Part shown: in pieces, positions 12,201 to 62,363 of the stretch
How the letters are laid out: each line of letters begins with the position of its first letter
Position numbering within the stretch: the first letter of the stretch is position 1
Assembly (NCBI GenBank): GCA_002726495.1
Contig: PBTH01000020.1
Coordinates: 6,650-70,649, forward strand
Direction: 5' to 3'
DNA length: 64,000 nucleotides
DNA from: Methanobacteriota archaeon
GTDB taxonomy: Archaea > Thermoplasmatota > Poseidoniia > Poseidoniales > Poseidoniaceae
Notes under the pieces: generated by a model
What the model was told of the DNA's origin: nothing
Seen by the model: the letters and a program-made list of their open reading frames with translations, nothing else
The model's database searches: none
Translations under genes and position numbers: made by a program

Positions 12201-13614
12201 CGTAAGCGAAGGCGGCGTTTGTGTTATAGAAACACGCGTCCTCAACATCGTTAACGAAAACACCCCGCCTCAACTGCAACTTTCATGGATTGGTTCAGCC
12301 GACCAAAGCACCGGCGGTGTTGATGGAGGAACCATACGTGCAAGTACAGAAACAACCATTGTTGGTGTTGCTCGTGACATTGGTGGACAAGTGACCCGTG
12401 TTGAAATTGACATCGTAGAATTAGCAACCAGTATCACGCTCAACAACGGTCCACTCCCAGTAACTTCATTCAATCCTGATGGGTCATGGGTTGCTATTTG
12501 GGACACTTCCAAACTGGACAACGATGGTGTCTACGAAGTGACCGTACGTGCATACGATGGTGAAGATTACTCGCCCGACAGCGTCTGGAGAATGAAGATT
12601 AACAATCCAATTAATGCTGAAAACTTAGACCCAGTATTCAATGAAACTGGTTGGGTAGGTTCCATTACAATCTTCTGTGATGTTCAATCAAATTCAATCG
12701 ACAGATGCGGTGGAGGCGCTTCAATTGACCTCACGCAGTTCTTCAGCGACCCTGACGGAATCGGTGAGACAGCCGATGCATTGGAATTCTTCATTCTCGA
12801 TAATGAAGATACCCTTGAAGACGACAGTTATCAGACAGACATACGAATCACCTCTTCTGGAATCGCCATTTACGACCCTATGGAGGGTAAGGCACAAACA
12901 ACGAGCGAGATTTCTGAATGGTCGTTAAACGGTGTTATGTTCTACGCTGAAGACGTTCAAGAATCCAAGGTTTACGCCACGGTGAAGGTAAACTTCCTCG
13001 TAAGGGGCGTGGCGTTCAGTGCAGAGAGAGTCGACGAAGGACCAATCACTCCAAGTGATCCGGCGACCTTCCGAGGAGAAGGTCTCCCTGGAAGCACGGT
13101 GAATATTCGCTTCGCTAATGGAAATGCAAAGCTCAATTCAACCCGTGTATTGTCTGATGGGACATGGGAAATGGACCTGACAAACAGTCAGCTTGGTATT
13201 GAAGGAAATGAAGAAGTCATCTTCGAAATGGACGGTCAAGTGTTCAAATTTGCGGGCCAAACTGAAGATGGCGAATTTAGCATCGTAGTTTCCAGCGGAA
13301 TAGATGAAGATTCATCTCTCTTAACGATCATTTTGGTGGTTGGAGCGATTGTTGTTCTCTTGGGCGTGGGCGCATTCTTCTTCGTTGAATTTGAAGAAAT
13401 ACCTGACATTTCCGAAGAAGAAGAGGCACTTCTTGAAGTTGCAGAAGACCCCTATGCATGGGCCAAGGCAAAACAAACACCAACTATTCCTCAACAAGAA
13501 GCGGCTCCTGCAGAACCCGAACAACAGGTCGCAGAGACATCAACTCACCCGGGTTGGATTTGGGACCAAGCCACAAACCAGTGGGTTCCGGACCCAAATT
13601 ACTCAGCTGAGTAG
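9208..13614 (+). CDS. Giant surface protein with an N-terminal parallel beta-helix-like repeat region, Ig-like domains, a C-terminal TM anchor and a cytoplasmic tail
   Basis: 1,468-aa ORF. The signal peptide 'MSQKLKAKSFSIVTLFLLSSLLGLVALPTASA' suggests the start is at ATG 9232. Repeated short 'N.I..N / G..I' turns typical of right-handed beta-helices span about nt 9330-10890. A Cys-bounded acidic motif 'CADGIDNDGDTMIDGDDADC' lies at nt 11364-11424. The TM helix 'LLTIILVVGAIVVLLGVGAFFFV' is followed by an acidic, Pro-rich tail. Confidence 0.8.
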   Translation: MGRIGASDMSQKLKAKSFSIVTLFLLSSLLGLVALPTASAVNETTKGTITGVETWTGTMNLQGDIEVAEGAKLVVNAGTTVNIPYGNYIDVKGAICIGDSACGASAGSSSNQARFIWSTPSDYSENGWCLNNQSQLLNNPDTACGSGMIIRDTIDQSLTSLNYAHFENGYGHPTYVATLQQVQYGVLVFDGSSTTARGLTFKDTNTSNVLAIDFASPTITDSEFELGIDGQGYDAAAVRAYGAGAGILSTFKLSTSVFTGNDADCGNQGGGRAVIYIEDSYVDMDDLEIKENAYGVLLKQSSGSLTNSDLTVKCNAIDTNSLKTTGTINHLLTVNDNTITTEEGAGITAYDGANVYAEGNTISGASEGSGVGIRSSTVELHDNVIGPIGGWNGLWIYGTSDVIAENNTIKEATKEAVLIGEYHYQDQGWQVPAPTAARLYFANNIIQNSSGTCNSQIYGGDFACPAIHVFMSSATIMDNTITGNTGDIIRAKGGLVNVQRNTADSAGGFAGNISMYDNNYGDKYGSVAYFSGNTWTGVSQVYNVTESRVTVQSEQIPSPGYGELYPVSISWEGAECPFVQTECLQLPGTAVLPPAQMPLAIELVDNATVFSYADLQNFDSSMIHVQNQNTAWGSQVREGELVRYQVKAKNSNVQGATVVIKDATGLPLYELTTDAFGFTQQVSLPSDFLLDRNWNHQVGDKNAIIPGSGNPPVTIDEDSCADGIDNDGDTMIDGDDADCINGREMPFYSVEAFKFGSGTKDFSYVLSGPIDDVINLDNLRPSVSVTQQDGVSFATTVSLTGQSWDGVKWPYANDNTANQKQFGTITAVEVQPPGTNDWYSAVDTSGANGVITMENHPFKDWSFDWDMSAHPEGEGDVTFRVRSYDGLDYSPVTVRLYKLNLVAPTIVVDVPNTGSTHTNGKVLFQGTASDPYSGTYGSDVKKIWFHITSVENDYVSHFYTEGSTSWSYEWDFSELLSGEYTFEVWASDSDFCIDQAVSVSEGGVCVIETRVLNIVNENTPPQLQLSWIGSADQSTGGVDGGTIRASTETTIVGVARDIGGQVTRVEIDIVELATSITLNNGPLPVTSFNPDGSWVAIWDTSKLDNDGVYEVTVRAYDGEDYSPDSVWRMKINNPINAENLDPVFNETGWVGSITIFCDVQSNSIDRCGGGASIDLTQFFSDPDGIGETADALEFFILDNEDTLEDDSYQTDIRITSSGIAIYDPMEGKAQTTSEISEWSLNGVMFYAEDVQESKVYATVKVNFLVRGVAFSAERVDEGPITPSDPATFRGEGLPGSTVNIRFANGNAKLNSTRVLSDGTWEMDLTNSQLGIEGNEEVIFEMDGQVFKFAGQTEDGEFSIVVSSGIDEDSSLLTIILVVGAIVVLLGVGAFFFVEFEEIPDISEEEEALLEVAEDPYAWAKAKQTPTIPQQEAAPAEPEQQVAETSTHPGWIWDQATNQWVPDPNYSAE

Positions 13615-20999: not shown

Positions 21000-23900
21000 A
21001 TGCGAAGAAGTCAAACAACCCTTCTCACGACATTAGCAGTGATTTCTAGTCTGCTTTTTATGTCGCAGTTTCCAACGATTTCAAATGTCGCAAACGTTCA
21101 TCCAGATGATACAACCCAAACTCCACCGCCAAACACTGATACAGATGGTGATATGATTCCAGATGTTCATGAGACGCTGTTTGAGGAATGGATGAATTGG
21201 ACCGCAGTTGACGGCCGTAGTGTTTTCATGCAAGGCATGGACAAAAATAACGCCTCGGATGCTTCCATGGATTTTGACCGGGATGGACTCAATGCAACAG
21301 AAGAGTTTTGCTGGCCCTATCCTGCTAATTGTACGGAGCCTGGTTTTCCTAGAGGTTTGACCGGCATTATCAATGAGAATAGCGAACGTGTCTATCTCGA
21401 CCCTAGAATCTCCGATACTGACGGAGATGGAATGCCGGATGGATTTGAAGCATACATGTGCCAAAGGGTTGGTGGCTATGATGTTGTATCAATGCGGTAC
21501 GATTGCAACTCATACAATCCTCTCAACGGCAGTGATTTGACATCGGATGGGGACAATGATGGTTTTGATGTTGATCGTGATGGAACACTCAGTTTATCGG
21601 AACGATTTACAGCACCTGAGGAGTATTCCTTTGGAGCAACTGCGAATTTCACAACTGAACTTGATGGTTTGTGGTGTCATGCAACGCTGCCAGAGGGCTC
21701 AGTCTGGACGAACTGGCCGTTCTTACCATCGGGTGCGAATGCAACGTTCCACAATATTTTACCAGCATGTACGACCAATTCCACTTCCCCTGTTGGCGAA
21801 GATATGTGGCTTGGAACTGACCCGTTATTGGATGATTCAGACCGATACAACTGGGATGGATTTTCAATCCGTAATTTGTACCCATCATTTGGTGACGGTA
21901 TCCCTGACGGATGGGAGGCCCATTTCGGATTGGACCCTCTGAACCGAACAAATGCTCTTGAAGATACGGACATGGATGGCTGGGACTTAAACCGCGATGG
22001 TACGATCACTCAAGATTTAGCTCGGACATTTACGGCTCTTGAATTGGGAGAAGCATTGTCAACGTTGGAGGAATACCTCGTTCATTACGACAATGGAAAT
22101 ACAATTTATCCTGGCTTAAAATCTACGAGTGTTATGGATCCAAGTGCTGAATTCGTAGTTCATCCACTCGTCTATGACTCAGAAGATGATGTCATGTCAG
22201 TCAACCATTATGACATCCGTTCGTTGGCTGAAGACGGTGGGAATTTGTACGTTATGACTCGTTATGGTGTGAGTGTTCTCAATCTTGAGCAACAAACAAG
22301 TTCGCATCAATGGCTCCCTCAAGGCGTACAAGTTCATGATGGAATATTGGTAAAATCAGATGATGATGCCTTTGCTCTGGCCCTAGCAACGACCGCTGGT
22401 GTTGCAGTCATTCCCCTTCTTGTTGACGGTTCAATTGGTCCTCTAACATCTTGGGATTGGAGCATGGTTGGTGAAATGAGTGCTATTACACAATTGTCCG
22501 GTCTGGATGGCAATCAGCAACTCATCTCGCTTGGTCATGCTGGAGCAGGCGCAGTCTTGGAATTGGGCTCAGATGCATCGATTGTTTCTACATACGCCCT
22601 CGGTGCCGGAATTCGTGATGGTCTTGAGGTATCAAATGCCTCAGTGACAGATATCGAACATGGTGCAGCAGGAGGTTCAACTTACAGGCTCTTTATCGGA
22701 ACGGACCGAGGGCTGATGACCGTTGATACCGCATCAGCAAGAGATGAGGCTGTAGGTACATGGCGATTTTACTTCACCACAGAAAGCACTCCGATTGAAT
22801 CGGCTGTTAGCGACCTGCGTGGATTGCCTCTCGGATTCGTAGACAATCCTGCTGAGGTCCGAGACATGGCTCTTGATGGCCCTTCATCTGAAAATGCTCA
22901 AGCCTTGTGGTTCGGTACACCTGCTGGCGTTCACAAACTGGATCTCCTCACTGATACAATTGATTATGGAGGCCTCTTGGTTCATCCCGGAGTTGACGGA
23001 ACACTTGCTCAAGAAACCAACAATGTATATTCCATCATGCCCACAGGCGATGAGATTCTCGTAGGCTCCCAGTGGGGCCTTTGGGCTATTGCAGGAGACT
23101 ACATTGCTGTGTATGGCCAACAAGACCAAACGAGATTGCCGGGGCAAATCACAACGATTGCAACGTTTGAGATGAACGGCAATATGACGGTATTCGGGGG
23201 TGCTTCTCCTGGGAAGTATGCCAACTTACAACTCATAGACCCTGGAGCAAACGATTCCGATGCCGACGGTATGCCAGATGGATGGGAAGTTGTCAACGGC
23301 TTGGACCCAACTGACCCTTGGGATGCTTTGTATGATACCGATGGCGACGGTATAGATTTGGATCAAAACGGTGATTTTTCATTGGACCGATTGTGGACCA
23401 ATCTTGATGAATTTAGATATGAGAAAACAACTCCTGATGGTTATGATTCAACGACTCCAACCGCCGACGATACCGATGGTGATGGCATTAAAGACGGTGC
23501 TGAATATTTCGGATTCTATTACGAAAACAGCACCTTGTGGTGCCACTATACCGTTCAGATGGTTTACATTTGTGATGATGCCGCTGGACAAGCCGCCAAC
23601 GCCACATACCTAAGTGTCGCAAATGTAGATTCGGGAACTGACCCAACAAATCCCGACTCAGATGGAGATGGTATGCCAGACGGTTGGGAAATCCAGCACC
23701 GTCGATGGGTTGGGATGACATTTACCGGTGGAAATAATTGGAGTCTTGACCCTCTGCGTGCTGATGATGCAAATTGGGATGCTGACGGTGATGGACTGCC
23801 CAATTTGTGTGAATATCAATGGTCAATCGTTCGCAACCTCGGACTTCAAGGAGAATTGTACGAACTCTATGGTGAATCTCCAGAGAGCGTCGGAACATGG

Positions 23901-26807: not shown

Positions 26808-29800
26808 GTGTGTCTTCGTCGTATGCAGGGTAGCGATACGCATACATTTTTCTCTCGCGGCGCCTTTTGGTTGCTCGTCATTTTGATGGTGACGACCCCA
26901 TTGAGTCCGCTAACATCCCTCATTTCCGAGGATTCTTCCGCTGCTTCAGGTACTCGTCACGTCTATGACTTCCATGATGGTTCAACTGAATACGTTGCCC
27001 TTTACCAGGGCGCCAATCCAGACCTCGGTGCGAAGGTCAGTCTTCCCCGAGGTGCCTTGGTTACCGATGTGAGTATGACCCTTTCCGGAGCGTCCGCCAC
27101 TGGTTGGTCACAAATCTTGACCGACACACGCGACCATTGGATTGATGGACAAGAATCCAATACTGACGACAGAAGTGGCGACCTGACCCTTTCACTGGAC
27201 AGTGTCACGGAATCATTCTATCCGCACGGTTTTGATGAAGTGACCAATGCTAATTCTGATGCTTGGTTGGACAACGGGTCCTACGCCCTTCGACAACCTC
27301 ACACATCAAACGCAACCGAGAGTCTCTTCTCCCAACAGATTACCAAATCCTCATCAAGTTTCATGGCCCAAAGCCAAGGTGCTATTCTCAAACATCACGA
27401 TTGGTTGTTCCTTTCAACATGGTCCTCTTCGACCTTCAGCAATGTTGTTCATCGTCTTTATCCAAACAATGCAAGCCGTGAATCAATCATTACCTTGGAC
27501 CAAGCCCAATGCAATCTTCCTCAAAAGCACTCATCTTCGTATTATGGATATTATGGCTTTAGGGATTGGACCGTCACCGACGACGAACGATTGTTTGGAA
27601 TCCTATCGGGATACCGTTATACTTACGGCTCAAATGCGCCTGTAAATTATCATCGTGTAATGGAAATGGACATCTCCAGGGACAGTGTTTGGACATGTAT
27701 CGATTCCTATGACATCTCTGCAGGAGCAGGCGATTATACGGGTATTGCATACGACCGAGATAATGATAAGGTATGGGTCGTGCACAATCAAGGAGGAAAA
27801 ATAGTTTCATACGATTTCTCAGGAGATGGCACATCCACATGGGACCGTGATGAGAAATATTACACCTTCACCTCTTCTTCTTCAAGCAGTCGTGAATGTG
27901 GCCAAACCAATCAAATGGTCCGTGGTCTTGAAGTTAATTCAACCACGTTTTTCATGCGTTGCCAGAAAGATTCCTATTACAACGACCGTGATCAACTTGA
28001 GGCCTGGGATATTTCAGGTTCAGCCCAAGCACTCATCCCTCAATCAAATACCCGACAAATATCTCGAACAGGTTACGGTTTGCAATTTGACGGAAATCGT
28101 TTCATCAGTGTTGATTCGGGCTATTCTACATGGTCGGGAGCAACGCTGTATTACAGAGAGTTTGGAACAAGTTGGATGTATGACACCACCCCTGCCCCAG
28201 GTACCACAACATGGTATGGGCCAGTAACAACCTATGTTGACGATGTACTGGCTGCGAATGTCCAAACATACTGGTCTGCCGCATCCATCGGTGACCGTGT
28301 TGATTATTGGGTCTCCGCAGATAACGGTACACACTGGGAACAAGTTGTTTCCAACTCGACGATTCACTTTGACTACCCCGGTAAAGAACTGGTTTGGAAA
28401 GCTCAGTTGATTGGTTCAACAGCAGTTTCATGGTGGGTTGACATCGACGCATCAACACAATATGCAACATCAGGTGATTGGACTTCACCTTACTACAACA
28501 CTGGAACAAAAGTGGGTAAGGTTCGTCCGACATGGGTTGCTGACCTGCCAGCGGGTACATCGCTCCAAGTTGTTGTTTCAAACGATAACGGCAGTACATG
28601 GCTTGATGCAGAAAACAATGTTGAAACGAGTTTTTCAACCGATGCTGCGGGAAATACCCTGCGCTATGCCATCTTCTTGACAACCAATAACACAGATCAC
28701 ACCCCGAGTGTAGACAGTTTCACGCTATGGTATGAAGAAGGATATCCGGACAGGCCGATGTTGGATGTAGGTGGAGATGGCTCCTATGACTGGGAGGCCA
28801 TGATTTTCCTCAACGAATCAGCAGTTGTAGCCACTGATGATTCACAAGTAGGAGTTATTGTCAAAAAGGCACCTACATTGATTGACGCTTTCAACGATTA
28901 TATTCCTGAAAACGGAGAAGGTATGCTCGATATTCCTATTGGAATTAAGGCCGCTTCATCGGGTCGGATCAAGGTTTCAAACATTGACGTAACCTATGCA
29001 ATGCAGACCCGTGCTATTGATGCCTCCTTTGAAGGAGGTCTCGCTTCTCCAGATGGTGCGTATCGAAATTTCATCACTCGTGTTGCTCCAGGTGATGAGG
29101 TTGACCGAGTCACTGAAGCGACCATTGCCCTCAACCACAGTTATGGAGAAAACCCTTCCTTTACTTGGCTTCGTGGTGATACATGCAGTACCAATAATGA
29201 TGGTGGAGGTATTGTGGTGTTTGACACTGCAAATTGCACTTCAACAGTGGATGCATTAGGTGTTGTATCTATTTGGATTCCGACCAAAGTCAACTGGAGT
29301 TGGAATGACGAAGCAGATTTGGAAGCGATCATTACCGTGAAAGACGACCTTGGCGTAGCCGTTGACCAGTGGGATACTACTGAGATGGACTTGGTTATTG
29401 AGAACGACATACAACTCGACGGATTGCGTGTTTGGGAGGAGACAGGACGGCAATTGTTCCCGATGGATTGGGTTCGTGGAGGATTTAACCTCAGTTTTGC
29501 AGGTGGTCTTCACTTCCAAGATTCTCAACTCATGCCCCCTGCAGGTAGCTTCAGTCTTCGTGTCATGGGTCAAAATGTCACCTATGATGGAGACCCTATG
29601 GGGGCGTCTGTCCTGCTTCATGAAGAAGTGAACCCAGCATTTGGTGAATACAATTTGACCTTTGTTGCACCTATTGAATCTGCACCCGGTGGTATGATCT
29701 TTTACGTCCAAGCAGTCAATCTTGAAAACGGTTCAACCTATTCCAATCCAGGATACAACACGATTCGCCTCATTCTTGATGGAAATTCTCCTCTTGTTCT

Positions 29801-32210
29801 GAGTTCAACACCAACCGATGGTGAGGAGCGTCATGCTGGTTCGGCAGGTGTTGGACAAGCGGTATCTGTTGTCGTTCAAGATTCGGTTGACCCTCCCCAA
29901 CAAATTACCTTGAATTACTGGGTTGGTTGCCTTGCAAGCGATGCAATCGGTTGCAATGATTACAACTTTGATGGCCTACCAAATGAAGATGAGTATGTGA
30001 GGAAGACGCTGTCTTCCCCTGAAACAAGAGTGGGCGGCATCAATATTTTTGAAGGCCTTATCGATGACTCAATGCTGTTGCATGAGCAGCGAGTTTCTTA
30101 CTTCATCACTGGAAAAGACCAGCAAGATAACGAGATCGCCATGGGCGGTGGCCCAGTCTGTCCCGTGACCAATGTTGTTTGTGGTGACCGTCCTGGAGAA
30201 GTTTTACCAGATTGGTCTGCAGACCTTTCGACGTATTTCATTCGGCAAGAATTTGAACCGATGGTCGACTTGGGTAACTCATCCATTATCGGACATGACG
30301 ATTACGAACCGCTTCACCCTGGCATCCCCTACACCGCACGTATTCTTATCAGTGACCAAAACGGATGGGATGATATCCAATTTATCCAAGTCGCTTTAGG
30401 TGGTGATCTTGACGATGAAGAAGCATCAATGTTCATCACACTTACACCCGATGAAGCCGGCAATCCTGTTGCAGTGATGGAAACCGGTTCCGATTACATC
30501 GCGGTTTCAAATCTATATTCAACCGTTGAACTTGATGAAACAAATCAAAGTATTGTCATCATCCAAGCACGTTTCCAATTGACATGGCAGTTCCCCGAAT
30601 CGTTTGATACAAATGGAGTCTCTCACTTTATACCAAAGGTACTGGTGACGGATTTACCTTGTAATGAAGGAGAAGTTACACCTTGTTTCGAAACCCGCTT
30701 CGGAATGGGCGACGATTGGTGGAGTTTGGACAATGACTTCAGGTTTGACACAGAACAAGGACACATCCGTGCCGTAGAATTACGTAACAGTGAAAATCAT
30801 TACAATTCTGACAACATTGAGACGATTATTGGTGCTGGACAAGCATTGCGTGTAAACGGTCGGGTTTTGTTCTCAGAAGACGAAACGCCTGCGCCAGCAG
30901 GAGCTTTTGATGTTGTCTTCGGAGATTTCGAGAACAACTGGAGAACATCAACCAGAGCCGATGGAGAATTCAGTTTGGACCTTTTGGTACCTTCAGTTCG
31001 CTCAGGTCACCTTGACCTTCGTTTAACGATGGATGACTTACCTGGACTGGCCTTTGATGAAACACCAACTCAACCCCGTGTCCGCCTTGCAGTTGACAGC
31101 GCTCGTCCTACGATTGAGAGCATTGGCCTTAACGGAATTTTACCGGGCTCCCCCATCTCCATTGGTGATGCGTCGAACCTAAAGGTGATGCTTGAGACCA
31201 ATGATGAAAATGGCTTTGATTACAATGAAGCAGCGTTACTCCATTATCGAGTCAAAGCCGGTGAGGCTGAGATTTCTCGCGGCAGTGTTTCTTTGCCCGA
31301 TATCACACCCTTTGGCTCACAATTCTTCTGGAGTGGTGTGCTTGATCTGACCGATTCGGGTGCAACCACATTGTTGCCATCCTACACCGTTGATGTGTGG
31401 GTTTCGGGTTCGGACGAGGCAGGAAATCCGTTCGACACATTCGGAAATTCAATGATTGAACCCTACGCTTCGTGGCCTCTGGCTCTTCTCGGCCCACGCA
31501 TTGACTTGCAGGACGAATCCACCGTGATGCAATGGGACAATCCAAGTCCTTACGAAGGTGAATCTGCATCCATGGTCGTAACAACGAAGAATCTTGCAGG
31601 CGAGGGGGATGTCACCTTCGCTCTCCAACGTTTGGTTGATGGAGGCTTCTGGTCTACATCATCTCAAGTTGCTCTTCAAGTTTCAGAGGGACAACTTCTC
31701 AGTGCGAGTTTACCTGTAGTTGCCGATGTTCCAGCAGGCCAAATCGTTCAATATCGAGTCCTTGTCTTGGTGGATGGTGTTGAGATGGACCGCCACACAG
31801 TTGATTCCCTTTTGGTTAAGGAAGAAACCATTCGTGATGGTGACGCTTTATCTCAACAAGTATCAGAAGATTTGTTCAGTATTACCTTGTTTGTCATTGC
31901 ATTAATCTCAGTGTCATTTGGTCTTTGGGCGATGGTTATGCAACGCCGTATGCTCAATCCTCCGGAGGAAGATGAAGCAGACCAAACCGATGTGGTTGCT
32001 GCGGAAATGGAACAAGATGCGAAAATTATACCCGACCTCGCAGGGTCTCCACCAGTTCCGCCCCAACCCGATATGAGTGCCACACCTCAACTCCCAAGTC
32101 TTGACCGCTCCGTGCCCCCTCCAGTTCCACCTACAGGTTTGCCCAACGGTTGGACTCAAGAGCAATGGGCGTCTTATGGATGGCAATACATCGATGCTCT
32201 AACAAAGTGA
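26808..32210 (+). CDS. Giant membrane-anchored surface protein with Asp-box (BNR-like) motifs, a C-terminal TM helix, a Pro-rich linker and a Trp-rich tail
   Basis: 1,800-aa ORF. The start is probably ATG 26823; the track opens at GTG 26808. A signal peptide 'AFWLLVILMVTTPLSPL' is present. Asp-box motifs 'SADNGTHW' (28314-28337) and 'SNDNGSTW' (28578-28601) are present. The TM helix lies at about 31873-31941. The tail ends 'GLPNGWTQEQWASYGWQYIDALTK'. Confidence 0.8.
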   Translation: MCLRRMQGSDTHTFFSRGAFWLLVILMVTTPLSPLTSLISEDSSAASGTRHVYDFHDGSTEYVALYQGANPDLGAKVSLPRGALVTDVSMTLSGASATGWSQILTDTRDHWIDGQESNTDDRSGDLTLSLDSVTESFYPHGFDEVTNANSDAWLDNGSYALRQPHTSNATESLFSQQITKSSSSFMAQSQGAILKHHDWLFLSTWSSSTFSNVVHRLYPNNASRESIITLDQAQCNLPQKHSSSYYGYYGFRDWTVTDDERLFGILSGYRYTYGSNAPVNYHRVMEMDISRDSVWTCIDSYDISAGAGDYTGIAYDRDNDKVWVVHNQGGKIVSYDFSGDGTSTWDRDEKYYTFTSSSSSSRECGQTNQMVRGLEVNSTTFFMRCQKDSYYNDRDQLEAWDISGSAQALIPQSNTRQISRTGYGLQFDGNRFISVDSGYSTWSGATLYYREFGTSWMYDTTPAPGTTTWYGPVTTYVDDVLAANVQTYWSAASIGDRVDYWVSADNGTHWEQVVSNSTIHFDYPGKELVWKAQLIGSTAVSWWVDIDASTQYATSGDWTSPYYNTGTKVGKVRPTWVADLPAGTSLQVVVSNDNGSTWLDAENNVETSFSTDAAGNTLRYAIFLTTNNTDHTPSVDSFTLWYEEGYPDRPMLDVGGDGSYDWEAMIFLNESAVVATDDSQVGVIVKKAPTLIDAFNDYIPENGEGMLDIPIGIKAASSGRIKVSNIDVTYAMQTRAIDASFEGGLASPDGAYRNFITRVAPGDEVDRVTEATIALNHSYGENPSFTWLRGDTCSTNNDGGGIVVFDTANCTSTVDALGVVSIWIPTKVNWSWNDEADLEAIITVKDDLGVAVDQWDTTEMDLVIENDIQLDGLRVWEETGRQLFPMDWVRGGFNLSFAGGLHFQDSQLMPPAGSFSLRVMGQNVTYDGDPMGASVLLHEEVNPAFGEYNLTFVAPIESAPGGMIFYVQAVNLENGSTYSNPGYNTIRLILDGNSPLVLSSTPTDGEERHAGSAGVGQAVSVVVQDSVDPPQQITLNYWVGCLASDAIGCNDYNFDGLPNEDEYVRKTLSSPETRVGGINIFEGLIDDSMLLHEQRVSYFITGKDQQDNEIAMGGGPVCPVTNVVCGDRPGEVLPDWSADLSTYFIRQEFEPMVDLGNSSIIGHDDYEPLHPGIPYTARILISDQNGWDDIQFIQVALGGDLDDEEASMFITLTPDEAGNPVAVMETGSDYIAVSNLYSTVELDETNQSIVIIQARFQLTWQFPESFDTNGVSHFIPKVLVTDLPCNEGEVTPCFETRFGMGDDWWSLDNDFRFDTEQGHIRAVELRNSENHYNSDNIETIIGAGQALRVNGRVLFSEDETPAPAGAFDVVFGDFENNWRTSTRADGEFSLDLLVPSVRSGHLDLRLTMDDLPGLAFDETPTQPRVRLAVDSARPTIESIGLNGILPGSPISIGDASNLKVMLETNDENGFDYNEAALLHYRVKAGEAEISRGSVSLPDITPFGSQFFWSGVLDLTDSGATTLLPSYTVDVWVSGSDEAGNPFDTFGNSMIEPYASWPLALLGPRIDLQDESTVMQWDNPSPYEGESASMVVTTKNLAGEGDVTFALQRLVDGGFWSTSSQVALQVSEGQLLSASLPVVADVPAGQIVQYRVLVLVDGVEMDRHTVDSLLVKEETIRDGDALSQQVSEDLFSITLFVIALISVSFGLWAMVMQRRMLNPPEEDEADQTDVVAAEMEQDAKIIPDLAGSPPVPPQPDMSATPQLPSLDRSVPPPVPPTGLPNGWTQEQWASYGWQYIDALTK

Positions 32211-32220: not shown

Positions 32221-32667
32221 TTGGACGACGCTACTGAAGGTGTTGATGGGCTTGTCACCCTCCAAGAACGCATGGTGAATCTTATCAATCAACTGAGCAT
32301 GCCGCTTGTTGAGGTTTCACTTGTCCTTCAAAAACACATCAAAGGGCTGTCGCAATCGCTTGACGAATATTTGAATCAAAGCGGGGATGAGGTGCCTGAA
32401 CGTGTATCTCAGCCTTGGCCAATCAATGTTGAACAATCGAATTCCCAAGCCAATTTTTCACTGGAAAAAGTACTCGAAATCGTTGACCATCAGCGCATGG
32501 ACATCCTAGAAGCATTGATTCGGGTGACCCTCATTGAAATTGAAGTCTCTCTCATAGAGGGAATCCTTGCTTTGCGTGCCTGGGAACAACTTGCTCGTAC
32601 CCAACTCGCACAAGCAACTGGTCCGGGCCAACTGTTCTCACCACTGGAAATACCTGAAAACTGGTAG
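32221..32667 (+). CDS. Hypothetical acidic helical protein
   Basis: The ORF begins 10 nt after the giant gene (TTG 32221; first ATG 32272). It has no recognisable motif. The call rests on position in a tightly packed same-strand cluster. Confidence 0.35.
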   Translation: MDDATEGVDGLVTLQERMVNLINQLSMPLVEVSLVLQKHIKGLSQSLDEYLNQSGDEVPERVSQPWPINVEQSNSQANFSLEKVLEIVDHQRMDILEALIRVTLIEIEVSLIEGILALRAWEQLARTQLAQATGPGQLFSPLEIPENW

Positions 32668-44714: not shown

Positions 44715-44781
44715 GCATATTCTTGCCCAAAGATGAGTTCAAGTTATGTGCCTTTCAATCATCGGGTCTTTTGTAGGTAAC

Positions 44782-52348: not shown

Positions 52349-52741
52349 ATGGCACCTATATGGCCGTTCAAGAAAAAGCAAGAAGTTCTCGAAGTTGATG
52401 AGGAACCCCCGCCTACGATTTCTTACAAGAAAGGGGAGGACCCAAATGCACGACCAGCTACAACTACGGTTGATGCTTCTGCCTACAAAGATGCGCTCGC
52501 ACTGTTTGGAGGGGGCTCCTCTAATGTGGAGGCTGCAAGCGATCAATCCGTGAATTATGATGGAGTCGCTGAACCCGCAGGGAACTCAACTGTCGCAAAG
52601 GAATCTCAACCAGTGAAGGAAGAATCGTTCACATGGGTCCATCATACGGATGGATATCACTACAAGAAGAATGCTGACGGCTCGTTTGAACCCACGCCAC
52701 ACAGTAAGAATGCCGATGGCTCATACGTGCCATATGCTTAA
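52349..52741 (+). CDS. Hypothetical small Pro/acidic-rich protein with an aromatic C-terminal repeat
   Basis: 130-aa ORF in a 470-bp gap between two minus-strand genes. The C-terminus 'WVHHTDGYHYKKNADGSFEPTPHSKNADGSYVPYA' contains a duplicated KNADGS[FY].P unit. Confidence 0.4.
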   Translation: MAPIWPFKKKQEVLEVDEEPPPTISYKKGEDPNARPATTTVDASAYKDALALFGGGSSNVEAASDQSVNYDGVAEPAGNSTVAKESQPVKEESFTWVHHTDGYHYKKNADGSFEPTPHSKNADGSYVPYA

Positions 52742-56117: not shown

Positions 56118-56240
56118 ATATCCTCCCGTCTTGGTTGCTCAAAATTTATCGTTCTTCAATGGAATTTTCGGATGGGATGTTTTGATTTTCCAACAACAGT
56201 GTTTATTGACGGTCTCAATGAGCAACATATGGAGAGGGAC

Positions 56241-57278: not shown

Positions 57279-57348
57279 TTGATTTTTCCATTGGCTCGTT
57301 CGCCCATGGAAGAGCATTCTTCAAAAGTGGAGTAGAGTTGGTAGGTTC

Positions 57349-60300
57349 ATGCGCTCTCGTATTGCCTTTGGTTTTGTCCTAGCATTGATGGTGCTTACTC
57401 CCCTATCTACCATGCTGGTTCAACCGGCCGAAGTCGCCTTTACTCAGGACAAACCAATGCCGAATCATGCAGTTGACTTCAGCGAGGAAGAACGCCTTGC
57501 TTTAGCCACGGAAATGTGGGGCGACATGCCTGAAGCTTCGTTGATTTCAGTTGAACTGTCACCGTCAACAGGTATGCTTCATCTTGCAAGCGGTTCATTT
57601 GACCCGCTTCTCTCAAGCGGGCCGGAAGTGATCCCCTCCTTTTCCAGGCCAAATGATGCCGTCCATACCGGATTTGCGATGGTTCAAATGCACGATACCA
57701 ACCGCGAATCGTTTGATGCTTTATCCAAAGAACATGACCTTGAAGTGTTGGATTTCCTTCATGATGAGGGATTTCTCGTCCGCTTACCGTCTCCGCCAAT
57801 GGATGTATTCTCCACACTCCAAGAGGACGAACGAATCCGATGGATTGGACATCAGCAACCTCAGTGGAGGATTGCTCCGCAATTGATTGATGAAGCCTTC
57901 ATTCCTCAATCGTTAACCTTCATCCCTGCATCAGACCTCGGCCACGGAGGCTATCCAGTTCTTGCCACAGATTTGATTCGCTATGGGGCCGATGAAGCGT
58001 GGTGTGATGCTTGGCTTTGTCGAGCAGTTGTTTCTGAGGAGACACTTGCGACCTTGTTGAGAAATGTGGCTCACGACGGTCGTATCATCTGGACTGAACC
58101 CTCTGCTGAATTAAGATTGCATAATGCACTTGCATGGTCCATTGCAGGAGTCCAAGATGTCAACAACAATGCATCATTTACTCTCGATGGATCCGGTGAA
58201 ATGATTGCCATAGCAGATACAGGTTTGGACAACAATCACCCTGATTTGACAGGGAGAGTGGCCGCCACATACACACAATTTGGACTTGATCCTTCCCCGG
58301 CCGATACCAATACAGGTCATGGTACTCACATTGCTGTTACAGTCGTCGGTAACGGCACGGGGGACTCATCCGCTCAAGGTGTCGCCCCAGCCGCCAACCT
58401 CGTCATGTATGCACTGGAGCACGACCCTACAGGTGTCTTTGGTAGAATTGGTTCAATTTACGATATCCTCAGAGATGCAGAGCAAATGACAGCGAGAATC
58501 GCTGTCAATGCATGGGGTCTGAATGGGAATTACGGCCAATACACTGCAGATGCGCGTTCAGTTGACATGTTTGTCAACGACCGAGATGATTTGACTCCGA
58601 TCTTTTCAATTGGCGACCGAGGTGGACAAGGTGCATCCCAAGTGACATCACCCTCGACTGCAAAAAACACCATCGCTATTGGAGCCTCCACTACAGGTTC
58701 TTCCGGAACAATTGCCGCAGGGGAAGTTGCAAACTTTTCATCGCAAGGACCATCACTTGACGGACGAATCAAGCCGGATCTTGTTGCTCCTGGTGTCGGT
58801 GTCTGTTCCGGGTTAGCTGAAGAGGCAAAATTCCCATCAGGTCCTTCCTGTTTGACCGGTTCGCATTCAACTGGAAATTCGTATTACATGGAACTTTCAG
58901 GTACTTCCCAAGCAACAGCAGTTGCTTCTGGAGTGGCGGCTTTAACACGTGAATTCCTTCGTGAACAAGCCGGTGTGAGTTCACCTTCCAGTTCTCTTGT
59001 AAAAGCAGCTCTCATCAACGGCGCTGAAGATTTGGGTACGCCCGATATTCCAAACGCTGACGAAGGATGGGGGCAAGTTGACCTTTCTCGTACCGTTCTG
59101 CCCATGGATGGAACAACTCCTTTGAATACATTCTTTGATGACAACAAACTTCTTTCCCCAGGATTTGGATTGCTTTATTCCTTCTCACTTGACCCGTCCC
59201 ATGGCGTTGACATCACGCTTGCATGGACCGATGAAGCAGGCAGTGCAAATGCCCCTCAAAGCCAACCAAGACTCGTTAACAACATGGATTTGATCCTCGT
59301 TGACCCGAACGGAGTTGAGTGGTTGGGCAATCAATTTGCAAACGGGATAACCACATCGGGTGGTACAGCCGATGATGTCAACAATGTCGAACGTATTCGC
59401 ATCCCAGCCGGAGCCCTCTCAGGTGGACAAGGACAGTGGATTTTGAAGGTCCTTCATCGTGGAGGGACTTCTCAAGACTTTGGCTTGGTCATGTCCGCTG
59501 TTGCAACGCCAACACCTCAAGCGGATTTGGCGGTATTTGATGGCAGCATCATTACTTCCTCGGTCAATCCGCTTCGAAACGACCTGATTGCAATCAGCAT
59601 TGCATGGGTCAATCAGGGGACGAGTCCATCCGGAAGCTTTGACATTCTCTTTGAGGATTTAACCTCTCAAGATGTCCTTACAGGCACAACGCGTAGTGGA
59701 TTGCAGCCAGGTGAGTTGGATGCTATTACCATCTATCATCAATTTGCAACAACTGGAATTCACACGCTTAGAGTATCTGTTGATACGACCGACCAAGTCG
59801 TAGAAATGAACGATGCAAACATAGGTACTGACAACAACATATGGACGGTTGATGTGGAAGTTATGGCTCTGGGAGTCCGTGTTGTTGTCGCTGATGCACA
59901 AGGAAATCTACCCACCACCAGTGCTGAGCGTGATGCTAATGCGAATCTTGTTCTCGATGTGAGGAACGATTCCGGAATTGATATTCCTCTAGCCGTGCTT
60001 CACGAAGGTACTGGGAATCAATCCGTCACCCTTTCATCGACGATGGTCCAAGTTCCATCACCAGACCGTGCAGACTTCTTCCTCCCCAGTCAAGACCAAT
60101 GGAGCCGAACGTTTGACGAAACGACCAACTTCATTCTTACCGCACAAGGTACCAACGATGCAAACAATACCATCAATTTGCGCTTGGAAGACTTGGATGC
60201 AGATTTGACAACCGACCCCCAAAGTCCTCGTTTTGTTCGGGCAGGGACCTATGTCATTGACATTACCGCCCGCTATGAATTCCAGCCTACTGTTGCTCAC

Positions 60301-62322
60301 AGTCAGCGTATTTACATCGTGGTTGAGCAGTTGGATCAAGTGAGCGTTGTCCCTGCGGGAACCAGTGGGTTACAAGCGGAACCAGGCAAATCTAGTTTCT
60401 TTTCTATCTCCGTAAAGAATACCGGTAATGCACCAGCTCAGTACAGTGTTGAGTGCTTCTCTGAACACCGTTGGCAGGTCATGCTCGGTGGTTCAAATTC
60501 ATCCCGTCTGGATTTTGAACCGCTCAATATTCAAGAATATCTCCCAATGGCAGTGCGAATCATCGTGCCTTTGGTAGCGGGTGGAATGCCGGCGGCTGGC
60601 GATACTGATACTGTGACGTGTTATGTCACTTCGCTGACTGATTTGACGATGAATTTCACCGAAACAGTATCGATTGAAGTTCTTCCGCAAGAATCCTTTG
60701 AAGTGCATCTCTCTGATGATGATGGCAGGGTTGGTCCGTCTCATTTAGCCAGTGATCATGCAGTTGATAGCGGTGAAAAGCTGCACATGAATCTAAGCGT
60801 TGAAAATACCGGGAACATAGCAGTGTCACTCGATGTAAGAGTTCAACCATCAAATCCACTATGGGCCATCCGGGTCAGTCATGACGGACAGGATGACTCT
60901 CGTACGCTTGGATTTAACATCCAACCCGGTGATACCAAGGTTGTTATGCTCGTATTTACCGTTCCCATTACCGCCGAAGAAGGGGATGAAAATGCCTTCA
61001 CAATTCGAACCGAACGCTCCTCAACCAACTTTAGATCAAATGTCACAGAACTCGTCGTGAGGGACGAACTCGCCGTTCAATTGACAGGCCCAGAAAACAA
61101 TCATATTGATGTGAGCATAGGAAATAATTTTGCTTACGCTGATTTCACCGTCAAAAACACCGGCAATACCGCACTTAGTTTGGAGTGGACTCATGGTTTA
61201 GCACCTGACGGTTGGACGGTTGGTTTCGCCAACCCGATTCTCTACTTGGAGCCAAGGGAAGAGGAAGTTGTCAGTTTCGGAATGACTCCACCCGCACAGG
61301 CGAATGTTTCTACTAATGCCTTTGAGATACTTGTGTCTGTCAATGGGACAAATACAGGCCGATTCACAGAAGATGCAGTCATGTTGTCGGTGGGTGTCTT
61401 GGAATCCATGTATGCCAATCTCACCGTTGAAGATACAGAAATTCGCCCGTTGGAAGAAATCCCTCGGGATGGTTCTGCTTCGCAAAATTTTGTACTCCGA
61501 AACGATGGTAATACGCCATTTAGCGGAGAAGTACAAGCTGAAATTCTTGACCAAGATGGAATGCTTCGTGATGACTGGAAGGTCACAATAACTCCAACAA
61601 CAGTTTCAGACCTCGCCGTTGGTTCAACGGTTCTATTGACCGTGACCCTTGAGCCGCTCGAAGATGTTTCAAGGTCAGTTGGATCACTCACCATCAATGT
61701 AACCGCAGACGGTCAACAAATCACCTCCTTTGCCATTGATGCTGGCGCCAAGGCCGCAGTAGGGAATCAGGGGCTCTTCAGTTCGTTATCACCAGGTGCT
61801 ACAGCATCTGTGTTGGGACTGATAGGAATTTGTGTCGCTGTTGTTGCTCGCCGTGTCAAAAAGTCAGGTGAACTGCACGACGATGGTTTGGAACTTGTTG
61901 CACCAGATTCCCATACCAATCCCGATTCAATGGGTGCTCGAAGAGATGAAGTATTGGATATCAGTAGCGCAGTTGACGACTTGACAAGCGGCGAGGTAAG
62001 TGATGAAGAGATCGCAAAAGCACTCATGCAATCTATGGATTTACCTTCAGCACCAGCAGCCGTCCCCTCCGGACTGCCTCCCGGGATGCCTCGAGCAGGA
62101 ATGCCTCCAGTAGGAATGCCTCCAAAGGGGCTCCCTCCAGTCCGCTCTCAAGCGCCTCTCCCGATGCCTTTGCCTTCGCTACCGGTTCAACCTGCCCAAC
62201 CAGCGGTAACGGTTGCTCCATCCGCTCAAGGCCCCCCTCTACCGCCAGATGGCCTCCCTCCGGGATGGACGATGGAACAATGGGCACATTACGGCCATCA
62301 GTGGCTTCAGCGTCAAGGATAA
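57349..62322 (+). CDS. Giant membrane-anchored subtilisin-like protease (S8) with a beta-sandwich/CARDB-like array, a Pro-rich linker and a Trp-rich tail
   Basis: A signal peptide is present. Triad motifs are 'IAIADTGLDNNHPDL', 'GHGTHIAVTVVGNG' and 'LSGTSQATAVASGVAAL'. A post-catalytic beta-sandwich follows ('ITLAWTDEAGS...LVNNMDLILVDPNG...NNVERIRI'). CARDB-like repeats include 'VKNTGNAPAQY', 'VENTGNIAVSL', 'VKNTGNTALSL' and 'LRNDGNTPFSG'. The TM helix lies at about nt 61801-61848. The tail ends 'GLPPGWTMEQWAHYGHQWLQRQG'. Confidence 0.9.
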   Translation: MRSRIAFGFVLALMVLTPLSTMLVQPAEVAFTQDKPMPNHAVDFSEEERLALATEMWGDMPEASLISVELSPSTGMLHLASGSFDPLLSSGPEVIPSFSRPNDAVHTGFAMVQMHDTNRESFDALSKEHDLEVLDFLHDEGFLVRLPSPPMDVFSTLQEDERIRWIGHQQPQWRIAPQLIDEAFIPQSLTFIPASDLGHGGYPVLATDLIRYGADEAWCDAWLCRAVVSEETLATLLRNVAHDGRIIWTEPSAELRLHNALAWSIAGVQDVNNNASFTLDGSGEMIAIADTGLDNNHPDLTGRVAATYTQFGLDPSPADTNTGHGTHIAVTVVGNGTGDSSAQGVAPAANLVMYALEHDPTGVFGRIGSIYDILRDAEQMTARIAVNAWGLNGNYGQYTADARSVDMFVNDRDDLTPIFSIGDRGGQGASQVTSPSTAKNTIAIGASTTGSSGTIAAGEVANFSSQGPSLDGRIKPDLVAPGVGVCSGLAEEAKFPSGPSCLTGSHSTGNSYYMELSGTSQATAVASGVAALTREFLREQAGVSSPSSSLVKAALINGAEDLGTPDIPNADEGWGQVDLSRTVLPMDGTTPLNTFFDDNKLLSPGFGLLYSFSLDPSHGVDITLAWTDEAGSANAPQSQPRLVNNMDLILVDPNGVEWLGNQFANGITTSGGTADDVNNVERIRIPAGALSGGQGQWILKVLHRGGTSQDFGLVMSAVATPTPQADLAVFDGSIITSSVNPLRNDLIAISIAWVNQGTSPSGSFDILFEDLTSQDVLTGTTRSGLQPGELDAITIYHQFATTGIHTLRVSVDTTDQVVEMNDANIGTDNNIWTVDVEVMALGVRVVVADAQGNLPTTSAERDANANLVLDVRNDSGIDIPLAVLHEGTGNQSVTLSSTMVQVPSPDRADFFLPSQDQWSRTFDETTNFILTAQGTNDANNTINLRLEDLDADLTTDPQSPRFVRAGTYVIDITARYEFQPTVAHSQRIYIVVEQLDQVSVVPAGTSGLQAEPGKSSFFSISVKNTGNAPAQYSVECFSEHRWQVMLGGSNSSRLDFEPLNIQEYLPMAVRIIVPLVAGGMPAAGDTDTVTCYVTSLTDLTMNFTETVSIEVLPQESFEVHLSDDDGRVGPSHLASDHAVDSGEKLHMNLSVENTGNIAVSLDVRVQPSNPLWAIRVSHDGQDDSRTLGFNIQPGDTKVVMLVFTVPITAEEGDENAFTIRTERSSTNFRSNVTELVVRDELAVQLTGPENNHIDVSIGNNFAYADFTVKNTGNTALSLEWTHGLAPDGWTVGFANPILYLEPREEEVVSFGMTPPAQANVSTNAFEILVSVNGTNTGRFTEDAVMLSVGVLESMYANLTVEDTEIRPLEEIPRDGSASQNFVLRNDGNTPFSGEVQAEILDQDGMLRDDWKVTITPTTVSDLAVGSTVLLTVTLEPLEDVSRSVGSLTINVTADGQQITSFAIDAGAKAAVGNQGLFSSLSPGATASVLGLIGICVAVVARRVKKSGELHDDGLELVAPDSHTNPDSMGARRDEVLDISSAVDDLTSGEVSDEEIAKALMQSMDLPSAPAAVPSGLPPGMPRAGMPPVGMPPKGLPPVRSQAPLPMPLPSLPVQPAQPAVTVAPSAQGPPLPPDGLPPGWTMEQWAHYGHQWLQRQG
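62071..62142 (+). repeat. In-frame tandem repeat of about 15 nt encoding (G-[ML]-P-[PR]-x) x5 in the cytoplasmic linker of the giant subtilase
   Basis: Protein: 'GLPP GMPRA GMPPV GMPPK GLPPV'. DNA units: GGAATGCCTCCAGTA / GGAATGCCTCCAAAG / GGGCTCCCTCCAGTC and flanking variants. Confidence 0.7.
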
Positions 62323-62363
62323 GACCGTGTCAATCTTGAAAGGTAAGAGGTCCTAGCCCTGCC

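What the first reader, a model, noticed from the sequence alone, without database searches (positions are those of the whole stretch)
32130..32207. Conserved Trp-rich extreme C-terminal cytoplasmic tail shared by unrelated giant surface proteins (copy 1)
After the TM helix, a basic stop-transfer segment ('QRRM') and a Pro-rich linker, the protein ends 'PTGLPNGWTQEQWASYGWQYIDALTK'. The giant subtilase at 57349-62322 ends 'PDGLPPGWTMEQWAHYGHQWLQRQG' after the same TM / basic / Pro-rich layout. The shared pattern is GLP.GWT.EQWA.YG.Q[WY], although the ectodomains are unrelated. The beta-helix adhesin tail (13546-13611, 'HPGWIWDQATNQWVPDPNY') looks like a looser relative. By the positive-inside rule these tails are cytoplasmic. 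They are therefore not like PGF-CTERM/archaeosortase signals, where the motif precedes the TM helix. The tail may be a docking tag for a cytoplasmic partner involved in positioning, export or turnover. It loosely recalls short GW/WW-type Trp modules, but I cannot assign it to a family.
Basis: seen in the sequence. Interest (0 to 1): 0.66.

Follow-up and report, generated by a model that had tools for sequence, protein, structure and literature searches.

The report
Shared cytoplasmic Trp-rich tail module
Two unrelated giant surface proteins in this marine archaeal (Poseidoniales, Marine Group II) window end in the same roughly 25-residue Trp-rich module on the cytoplasmic side of the membrane; hundreds of other Poseidoniales surface proteins carry it, no library searched describes it, and it is probably a common handle for a still unknown intracellular partner.

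Summary
Both proteins have a signal-like N-terminus, a giant ectodomain, one C-terminal TM helix, a basic stop-transfer, an acidic/Pro-rich linker and a shared end motif.

The full module is PP[LIV]PxxGLPxGW[TS]M[ED]QWx[HYW]YGxx[WY]L (window 32118-32192 and 62233-62307).

- **Recurrence:** a DNA pattern for the motif hit at least 120 loci in 105 species-representative genomes, essentially all Poseidoniales. My estimate of chance hits is about one. An exhaustive profile search found 649 protein clusters, nearly all with the module at the extreme C-terminus.
- **Hosts:** at least 8 unrelated ectodomain families carry it. Orthologues of both window genes keep it.
- **Selection:** it is the best conserved stretch of the subtilase's last 420 residues, while its synonymous sites vary freely.
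- **Topology:** cytoplasmic placement rests on the positive-inside pattern and on co-occurrence with SAP domains on the same side.
- **Annotation:** Pfam, NCBIfam, PDB and the literature search gave no match. AlphaFold predicts a non-helical, non-strand Pro-rich stretch followed by an amphipathic helix.

The docking-tag idea is plausible but untested, and no partner was found. The beta-helix adhesin tail is not a relative. It is a separate conserved motif.

The parts
26808..32210 (+). Host protein 1: 1800-aa surface protein with no Pfam domain, whose C-terminus carries module copy 1
   Evidence: ORF list. No Pfam hit. Orthologues in L057, L012, L092 and L084 keep the tail.
26847..26921 (+). 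N-terminal hydrophobic, signal-peptide-like segment of host protein 1
   Evidence: Hydropathy scan. 68 of 70 complete module-bearing ORFs have such a segment.
31872..31940 (+). Single C-terminal transmembrane helix LFSITLFVIALISVSFGLWAMVM
   Evidence: Kyte-Doolittle scan; coordinates.
31941..31952 (+). Basic stop-transfer QRRM (positive-inside signal)
   Evidence: Across 118 proteins, mean K/R is 2.2 after the TM helix against 0.55 before it.
31953..32114 (+). Acidic then Pro-rich cytoplasmic linker (54 aa)
   Evidence: Across the family the linkers average 16% Pro and 15% Asp+Glu, and are 30-138 aa long.
32118..32192 (+). Module copy 1, conserved core PPVPPTGLPNGWTQEQWASYGWQYI
   Evidence: Profile score 50.2 bits. 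Position-specific conservation. AF2 predicts a helix over QEQWASYGWQYIDALT, with pLDDT 83-88 over residues 11-40 of the 42-aa tail.
57349..62322 (+). Host protein 2: 1657-aa Peptidase_S8 + CARDB subtilase carrying module copy 2
   Evidence: Pfam hits. The subtilase and downstream adenylate kinase each match 17 loci; GAPDH upstream matches 5.
61798..61848 (+). C-terminal transmembrane helix of the subtilase
61849..61863 (+). Basic stop-transfer RRVKK
61864..62232 (+). 123-aa cytoplasmic linker with acidic islands (DEVLDIS, GEVSDEEIAKAL) and Pro-rich GLPPGMP / MPPxGxPP repeats
   Evidence: Conservation profile across 16 orthologues.
62233..62307 (+). Module copy 2, conserved core PPLPPDGLPPGWTMEQWAHYGHQWL
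   Evidence: Profile score 61.5 bits. It is the most conserved stretch of the last 420 residues among 16 orthologues.
13546..13602 (+). Separate tail motif B (HPGWIWDQATNQWVPDPNY) on the beta-helix adhesin; not a member of the module family
   Evidence: Not scored by the module profile. A DNA pattern for motif B found at least 120 marine metagenome loci, and 105 of 108 ectodomains fall in one orthologue family.

Best explanation
The feature is an undescribed mini-module of about 25 residues that is specific to Poseidoniales (Marine Group II). Its consensus is PP[LIV]PxxGLPxGW[TS]M[ED]QWx[HYW]YG[QH][QE][WY]L.

Shown:
- It sits at the end of the cytoplasmic tail of single-pass (type I) surface proteins.
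- A disordered acidic/Pro-rich linker of 30-138 residues tethers it to the inner end of the TM helix.
- It is attached to many unrelated ectodomains.
- It is under strong purifying selection at the protein level.

Predicted: a Pro-rich stretch with no helix or strand assigned, then a turn (GLPxGW), then one amphipathic helix whose Met/Trp/Tyr/Trp/Leu stripe forms a single face.

Inferred mechanism: the module is a common docking handle. One cytoplasmic partner, encoded elsewhere in the genome, recognises it. Through it the cell can hold, position, cluster or turn over a defined subset of its surface enzymes and adhesins from the inside.

The module is one element of a wider modular tail vocabulary in these archaea. 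Other elements are an ANSMYGG linker motif, an acidic LLDDLDL/F end, SAP domains and zinc ribbons.
For: Recurrence and lineage:
- Four of the five loci labelled bacterial are colinear with MGII loci; the fifth, L084, gave no match in that test.
- Exhaustive HMMER over 1.84 billion representatives found 649 clusters at E<=1e-3 and 431 at E<=1e-10, with matches almost always ending at the C-terminus.

Modularity: at least 8 unrelated ectodomain clusters carry it, including a subtilase, an RCC1-like repeat protein (by eye, not scanned), a TSP3-repeat protein (E 1.7e-4, below Pfam's cut-off) and a protein with a CxxCH motif.

Selection:
- Positions the search pattern did not fix are 86-99% conserved: P-8, P-7, P-5, G-2, L-1, M5, [HYW]10, [WY]15, L16.
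- Codons at conserved residues are fully mixed.
- The tail is the conservation peak of the subtilase C-terminal region.

Cytoplasmic side:
- Positive-inside asymmetry.
- 68 of 70 complete ORFs have an N-terminal signal-like segment.
- The module co-occurs with SAP domains above Pfam's threshold on the same side of the membrane. This includes L059, where SAP and the module precede the TM helix.

Structure: AF2 gives mean pLDDT 78 and a helix over residues 26-41. The helical hydrophobic moment is 0.34, against 0.18 for shuffled sequences.

Other linear motifs in the same tails fit a docking-platform reading.
Against: - No partner was identified.
- No gene family recurs next to module-bearing genes of different families.
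- The AF2 model covers only 42 residues. Its 3D contacts could not be inspected, so packing of the Pro-rich stretch against the helix is not shown.
- Absence outside Poseidoniales was not tested exhaustively.
Confidence: 0.45

Rival explanations
1. Self-association module. The amphipathic aromatic helices of neighbouring tails pack against each other and cluster different surface proteins into patches, with no separate partner.
For: - There is a single hydrophobic Met/Trp/Tyr/Trp/Leu face.
- Many different carriers share the same module in one genome: the window has 2, and up to 3 were seen per assembly in a truncated scan.
- No partner gene was found nearby.
Against: - Invariant Gly, Pro and Gln positions and the PPxP segment suggest a specific fold or interface rather than a generic zipper.
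- Homo-oligomer prediction could not be run.
Confidence: 0.15
2. Membrane-interface anchor. The Trp/Tyr-rich amphipathic helix folds back onto the cytoplasmic leaflet as a second anchor, or as a curvature or lipid sensor.
For: - The sequence is rich in interfacial aromatics and has a significant helical hydrophobic moment.
- The flexible linker would let the helix reach the membrane.
Against: - The module carries a mean net charge of -2.7, and 96% of copies are net negative. This is unfavourable for binding lipid head groups, which are usually anionic (my knowledge).
- Strict conservation of G, P, Q, T and M is not explained by interfacial partitioning.
- Mean hydrophobicity of the helix is about zero.
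Confidence: 0.1
3. Biogenesis signal that acts as a nascent chain. The last roughly 30 residues interact with the ribosome tunnel or translocon at the end of synthesis of a giant exported protein, as a pause or arrest and checkpoint.
For: - About 110 of 118 copies end only 2-9 residues after the YG.
- The sequence is rich in Trp and Pro, as known arrest peptides such as SecM and TnaC are (my knowledge).
Against: - Some copies lie 31-57 residues from the stop, before an acidic end motif.
- In L059 the module precedes the TM helix. In P0154 it is internal, between an N-terminal TM helix and a C-terminal SAP domain.
- The distance to the TM helix varies from 30 to 138 residues.
- AF2 models it confidently as a folded helix.
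Confidence: 0.1
4. Chance resemblance, or a low-complexity by-product of Pro-rich tails.
For: The tails are compositionally biased (Pro, Gln, Ala, acidic residues).
Against: - Profile scores are 50-61 bits against 5 bits for the best other window ORF.
- At least 120 genomic hits were found, against about 1 expected by my calculation.
- 431 clusters match at E<=1e-10.
Confidence: 0.01

Closest known systems
C-terminal protein-sorting signals (PGF-CTERM/archaeosortase, LPXTG/sortase, PEP-CTERM/exosortase, GlyGly-CTERM/rhombosortase)
   Same: Each is a short, lineage-restricted C-terminal element shared by many otherwise unrelated surface proteins. This implies a many-to-one relation with a single recognising machine.
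   Different: In those signals the signature motif lies outside the membrane, directly before the TM helix, and the protein ends in a short basic cluster. Here the order is TM helix, basic cluster, a 30-138-aa linker and then the motif, so the motif is cytoplasmic. Nothing suggests cleavage. No NCBIfam sorting-signal model matches apart from a negligible LPxTATN hit (E=6), and that hit is on the beta-helix adhesin tail, not on the module.
WW domain (Pfam PF00397)
   Same: The N-terminal signature LPxGW is preceded by prolines. The only weak PDB sequence similarities involve that segment: the Salvador WW domain and LPEGWT of the MeCP2 MBD, at E 0.7-1.
   Different: There is no second Trp-x-x-Pro 20-22 residues on and no Pfam hit. 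AF2 predicts a helix rather than a three-stranded sheet. The module is also too short, at about 25 residues.
PP-fold / Trp-cage type miniproteins (a polyproline stretch packed on one aromatic helix)
   Same: The element order matches: a Pro-rich stretch, a turn, then a short amphipathic helix rich in Trp and Tyr, within about 30 residues. This is a resemblance recalled from my own knowledge.
   Different: There is no sequence relationship. Packing of the Pro-rich segment on the helix could not be inspected. Foldseek found nothing.
Cytoplasmic tails of adhesins in wall-less Mycoplasma (Pro-rich P1/P30 tails, EAGR box) and eukaryotic type I receptor tail motifs (integrin NPxY, cadherin-catenin)
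   Same: The logic is the same: a surface adhesin or enzyme with one TM helix and a short conserved cytoplasmic motif that couples it to an intracellular scaffold. This rests on my own knowledge.
   Different: There is no sequence similarity. No match to any Pfam family was found. The partner here is unknown.

Membership tests
PGF-CTERM / archaeosortase-type C-terminal sorting signal | Signature motif immediately N-terminal to the TM helix, on the extracytoplasmic side | tested here: not met
   The motif lies 30-138 aa C-terminal to the TM helix.
PGF-CTERM / archaeosortase-type C-terminal sorting signal | Protein ends with a short basic cluster right after the TM helix | tested here: not met
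   A basic cluster is present (QRRM, RRVKK), but 85 and 152 more residues follow it.
PGF-CTERM / archaeosortase-type C-terminal sorting signal | Match to a curated sorting-signal HMM (NCBIfam/TIGRFAM) | tested here: not met
   NCBIfam scan of the last 133-200 aa at E<=10 gave nothing relevant for the module-bearing tails.
WW domain (PF00397) | Match to the Pfam HMM; two Trp residues 20-22 apart with a terminal Pro | tested here: not met
   No Pfam hit at E<=10 for the tails or E<=0.01 for the full proteins. The Trp residues are 5 and 7 apart.
WW domain (PF00397) | Three-stranded antiparallel beta-sheet | tested here: not met
   AF2 predicts no strands and one helix at residues 26-41.
Any solved-structure family | Significant sequence or fold similarity to a PDB chain | tested here: not met
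   Profile against PDB sequences: best E=0.67. Foldseek: best E=6.
Proposed new family (Poseidoniales cytoplasmic Trp-rich tail module) | Core PPxPxxGLPxGW[TS]x[ED]QWxxYGxx[WY] after a TM helix, a basic cluster and a linker, at or near the C-terminus | tested here: met
   Both window copies score 50-61 bits against a profile of 68 independent copies and have the required layout.

The most novel reading that the evidence does not exclude
Poseidoniales may use a eukaryote-like code of modular short motifs on the cytoplasmic tails of their surface proteins. The elements seen are the Trp module, an ANSMYGG motif, an acidic LLDDLDL/F end, SAP (HeH) domains and zinc ribbons. Through this code, ectoenzymes and adhesins would be physically coupled to intracellular structures such as a cytoskeletal scaffold or the nucleoid. 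The Trp module would be the most widespread handle, with a dedicated and so far unknown reader protein.
Probability: 0.25. Interest if true: 0.8.

Novelty: new variant of a known kind. Interest (0 to 1): 0.58.

Why it matters
Marine Group II archaea are among the most abundant planktonic archaea and remain uncultured. [quoted passage not shown]

A conserved intracellular handle shared by at least 8 families of these proteins points to an unknown layer of cell-surface organisation. Its topology is the reverse of all known prokaryotic C-terminal sorting signals.

The module also has practical uses:
- It is a simple sequence marker for annotating a coherent set of surface proteins in MGII genomes.
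- It is a defined 25-30-aa bait for finding the partner.
- It is a candidate for a new Pfam/NCBIfam entry.

Tried and rejected
- **Family libraries.** Pfam and NCBIfam scans of the tails and the full proteins gave no family for the module.
- **Solved structures.** A profile search of PDB sequences returned only LPxGW look-alikes at E>0.6. Foldseek on the AF2 model found nothing.
- **Literature.** String searches for the motif found no papers. General MGII searches found nothing on tails.
- **Word-indexed protein search.** With the tail profile this returned only short contig-end fragments. They were useful as alignment rows but not for architecture, so the exhaustive search and the genome pattern scan were used instead.
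- **Viruses.** The viral contig scan found 0 hits, so there is no sign of viral carriage.
- **Partner by neighbourhood.** No ORF family is shared between loci of different module-bearing families.
- **ORF 32221-32667 as partner.** It is a real conserved gene, but it is syntenic only with the copy-1 family.
- **ORF 52349-52741 as a WW-like reader of PPLP.** The family is conserved (225 clusters). AF2 shows only a small C-terminal beta-meander with no significant PDB fold match. This idea was not supported.
- **Beta-helix adhesin tail as a divergent copy.** Rejected by profile scoring.
- **Recent duplication or gene conversion between the two window copies.** Rejected on codon evidence.
Full report
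**Observation**

Window 32130-32207 (+) is the end of a 1800-aa ORF (26808-32210) and reads PTGLPNGWTQEQWASYGWQYIDALTK followed by a stop. The 1657-aa ORF 57349-62322 ends PDGLPPGWTMEQWAHYGHQWLQRQG.

The second protein is a Peptidase_S8 subtilase with a CARDB domain. The first has no Pfam domain.

Both proteins share one layout:
- a hydrophobic N-terminal signal-like segment;
- a single C-terminal TM helix (31872-31940 and 61798-61848);
- a basic stop-transfer (QRRM and RRVKK);
- an acidic then Pro-rich linker of 54 and 123 aa;
- the shared motif at the end.

A six-frame regex finds exactly these two copies in the window.

**Is it more than chance?**

I wrote a degenerate DNA pattern for P.GW[TS].[DE]QW..YG, with 18 fixed bases and four two-fold positions. 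By my own calculation, about one match is expected by chance in the 596-Gb species-representative genome collection.

Nearly all are labelled Poseidoniales, Poseidoniaceae, Thalassarchaeaceae or generic Euryarchaeota/Thermoplasmatota MAGs. Five loci carry bacterial MAG labels; four of them are colinear over most of their length with archaeal-labelled loci, so they look like binning errors, and the fifth (L084) gave no match in that test.

A profile of 68 copies scores the window copies at 61.5 and 50.2 bits. The next best ORF in the window scores 5.3 bits.

An exhaustive HMMER search of 1.84 billion representative proteins found 649 clusters at E<=1e-3 and 431 at E<=1e-10. In almost every listed case the match ends at the protein's C-terminus. 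One listed hit, P0228, is a repeat protein full of GLPDGWT units that looks eukaryotic and MBD-like. I treat it as a false positive.

**Anatomy of the module**

From 343 non-redundant copies the consensus is PP[LIV]PxxGLPxGW[TS]M[ED]QWx[HYW]YG[QH][QE][WY]L. It is followed by 2-6 variable polar residues.

Positions the search pattern did not fix are still 86-99% conserved. These are P-8, P-7, P-5, G-2, L-1, M5, the aromatic or His at +10, [WY] at +15 and L at +16.

Codons at the conserved residues use all synonymous alternatives. The two window copies share 17 of 25 residues but only 53% of nucleotides, and 14 of the 17 identical residues are encoded differently. The constraint therefore acts on the peptide. 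It does not act on the DNA or RNA, and the two copies are not a recent duplication.

**Context**

Of 125 copies analysed, 118 have a TM helix 30-138 residues upstream, with a median of 72. About 110 of the 118 end 2-9 residues after the YG. The linker averages 16% Pro and 15% acidic residues. Of 70 complete ORFs, 68 have an N-terminal hydrophobic segment, and the median length is about 1170 aa.

After removing the tails, the ectodomains fall into at least 8 BLAST-unrelated clusters. They include:
- the subtilase family;
- a protein with RCC1-like repeats, judged by eye and not scanned against Pfam;
- a thrombospondin-type-3-repeat protein, with a Pfam hit below its curated cut-off;
- a protein with a CxxCH motif;
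- several families with no Pfam domain.

Database names for the full-length members looked up are almost all 'hypothetical protein'; two fragments are named 'PKD repeat protein'.

**Orthologue conservation**

The copy-1 protein has orthologues at 23-73% identity in L057, L012, L092 and L084, and all four keep the module.

The subtilase and the adenylate kinase downstream of it each match 17 of the fetched loci; the GAPDH upstream matches 5. Across 16 subtilase orthologues the module is the best conserved stretch of the last 420 residues. Pairwise identity there is about 0.9, against 0.1-0.4 in the flanking ectodomain and linker.

Variable positions follow the protein family rather than the genome. 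The tails are therefore inherited vertically within each family.

**Topology**

- K/R residues average 2.2 in the 14 residues after the TM helix and 0.55 before it.
- In L059 a SAP domain (Pfam E=5e-9, above threshold) and the module both lie N-terminal to the only TM helix of a protein with no signal peptide.
- In P0154 an N-terminal TM helix is followed by the module and then a C-terminal SAP domain, E=3e-11.

SAP is an intracellular nucleic-acid-binding fold (my knowledge). These architectures therefore place the module in the cytoplasm independently of the positive-inside rule.

**Structure**

AlphaFold2 with a 70-sequence alignment gives mean pLDDT 78. It predicts a helix over QEQWASYGWQYIDALT. 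The preceding Pro-rich segment has pLDDT of about 83 but no regular secondary structure.

The helix is amphipathic, with a hydrophobic moment of 0.34 against 0.18 +/- 0.09 for shuffles. The module is acidic, with a mean net charge of -2.7, and 96% of copies are net negative.

The element order recalls PP-fold or Trp-cage miniproteins (my knowledge). I could not inspect the 3D contacts, and Foldseek found nothing.

**What it is not**

- No Pfam, NCBIfam or PDB sequence match was found.
- No paper contains the motif string.
- It is not a PGF-CTERM-type signal, because the order of elements is reversed.
- It is not a WW domain. Only the LPxGW start is shared, there is no HMM hit, and the prediction is helical.
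- No viral contig carries it.

**Mechanism**

The evidence supports a folded or foldable peptide module displayed on a flexible tether at the inner face of the membrane by a defined subset of surface proteins. In the window this is 2 of roughly 6 proteins with a hydrophobic segment near the C-terminus.

The same tails carry other short conserved motifs:
- LPxxDx[VI]ANSM[YF]GGxxE[IL]FQQP appears in the linkers of two unrelated families.
- An acidic LLDDLDL/F motif at the very end follows the module by 30-60 residues in one family.

Other Poseidoniales surface proteins end in SAP domains or zinc ribbons instead.

This modular vocabulary is best explained by recognition of the tails by cytoplasmic partners, so I commit to a docking handle as the most likely mechanism (about 0.45). 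The step from 'conserved cytoplasmic module' to 'binds a partner' is inference.

No partner was found:
- No neighbouring gene family is shared between loci of different carrier families.
- ORF 32221-32667 is syntenic only with copy-1 orthologues.
- The 130-aa product of 52349-52741 belongs to a conserved family. It shows only a small C-terminal beta-meander with no significant fold match.

Rivals:
- **Tail-tail clustering.** It cannot be excluded.
- **Interfacial membrane binding.** It is disfavoured by the negative charge and by the pattern of invariant Gly, Pro and Gln.
- **A nascent-chain or arrest role.** It is disfavoured by copies that are internal or precede the TM helix, by C-terminally extended copies, and by the variable distance to the TM helix.

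**The third tail**

The beta-helix adhesin tail (13546-13602, HPGWIWDQATNQWVPDPNY) is not recognised by the module profile.

A separate DNA pattern for GW.WD....QW.PDP hit at least 120 marine metagenome loci. Of 108 ectodomains, 105 belong to one orthologue family of about 1470 aa. In the listed hits the TM helix is typically 41-69 residues upstream and the motif ends 4-8 residues from the C-terminus.

Three other hits are unrelated membrane proteins, including one that looks like a MIP/aquaporin channel by its NPA motifs (my reading of the sequence printed). Motif B is therefore an analogous but distinct cytoplasmic tail motif.

**Verdict**

The docking function is plausible and untested. The claimed third relative is rejected.

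The module is, as far as these libraries show, undescribed. I rate it a new variant of a known kind: a shared C-terminal element on diverse surface proteins, but with inverted topology. Interest is moderate to good.

Noticed in passing
window 13546-13602 (+); loci L121-L240: The beta-helix adhesin ends in its own conserved Trp motif, QHPGW[LI]WDxxxxQWVPDPNY. The motif lies 41-69 aa after the TM helix and 4-8 aa from the C-terminus. It was found in at least 120 marine metagenome loci. Nearly all belong to one orthologue family, but the motif also sits on the tail of a protein that looks like a MIP/aquaporin channel (L210) and on a multi-TM protein (L220).
   Followed up: partly
window 49784-49801 (-), end of ORF 49781-52273; L078, L086, L093, L105, L112; P0148, P0174, P0205, P0207, P0237, P0239: A second terminal tail motif is acidic-hydrophobic: LLDDLDL/F, or EDDLEF in the window. 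It ends several surface proteins. In one family it follows the Trp module by 30-60 residues.
   Followed up: partly
L002, L005, L007, L011, L020, L027, L031, L066, L070, L082, L114 (linkers between the TM helix and the module): A conserved linker motif, LPxxDx[VI]ANSM[YF]GGxxE[IL]FQQP, lies 26-89 aa upstream of the Trp module. It occurs in two unrelated ectodomain families (18 of 27 and 4 of 21 members).
   Followed up: partly
L059 (N-terminal region), L097 (C-terminus of a subtilase), P0154: SAP (HeH) domains, above Pfam's threshold, sit on the cytoplasmic side of single-pass Poseidoniales membrane proteins. One is a Peptidase_S8 subtilase whose tail is a SAP domain instead of the Trp module. 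This may point to membrane-nucleoid tethering.
   Followed up: partly
window 44746-46812 (+), C-terminal ~40 aa; L007, L011, L020, L035, L036, L038, L101, L104, L118: Some surface or membrane proteins end in a cytoplasmic CPxC...CxxC zinc-ribbon-like tail. In nine loci such a gene lies within the same 8-kb locus as a Trp-module gene of cluster 0.
   Followed up: no
window 52349-52741 (+): This is a small (130 aa), mostly disordered protein conserved across Poseidoniales (225 clusters). Its invariant islands are WPFKKK, AYKDALALFGGG and a C-terminal TWVHHTDGYHYK...DGSFEPTPH segment. AF2 models the C-terminal island as a small beta-meander (pLDDT 80-88). No family or fold match was found.
   Followed up: yes
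window 32221-32667 (+): This 148-aa ORF starts 10 bp after the copy-1 gene. It is conserved and syntenic in L012, L057 and L092 (48-67% identity). It has no Pfam or NCBIfam match and may be specific to that giant protein.
   Followed up: partly
window 1-7749 (+): The listed ORF begins at window base 1, so the gene may start upstream of the window. Its 2582-aa product has an N-terminal multi-TM region with a weak AglB-core-like hit (E=0.004, below the cut-off), CarboxypepD_reg domains and a C-terminal TM helix followed by a short basic tail. It carries no Trp module.
   Followed up: no
window 56097-63349; L016, L024, L026, L039, L058, L067, L069, L077, L083, L091, L106: The subtilase and the adenylate kinase downstream of it each match 17 of the fetched Poseidoniales loci, and the small ORF after the kinase matches 15. 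The GAPDH upstream matches 5. This marks the module-bearing subtilase as a core gene of the order.
   Followed up: partly
window 21000-26753 (+): This is a 1917-aa protein with repeated D.DGDGMPDGWE (bacterial TSP3-like) units. It has no C-terminal TM helix or tail module. Its P.GW repeats are unrelated to the tail module.
   Followed up: no
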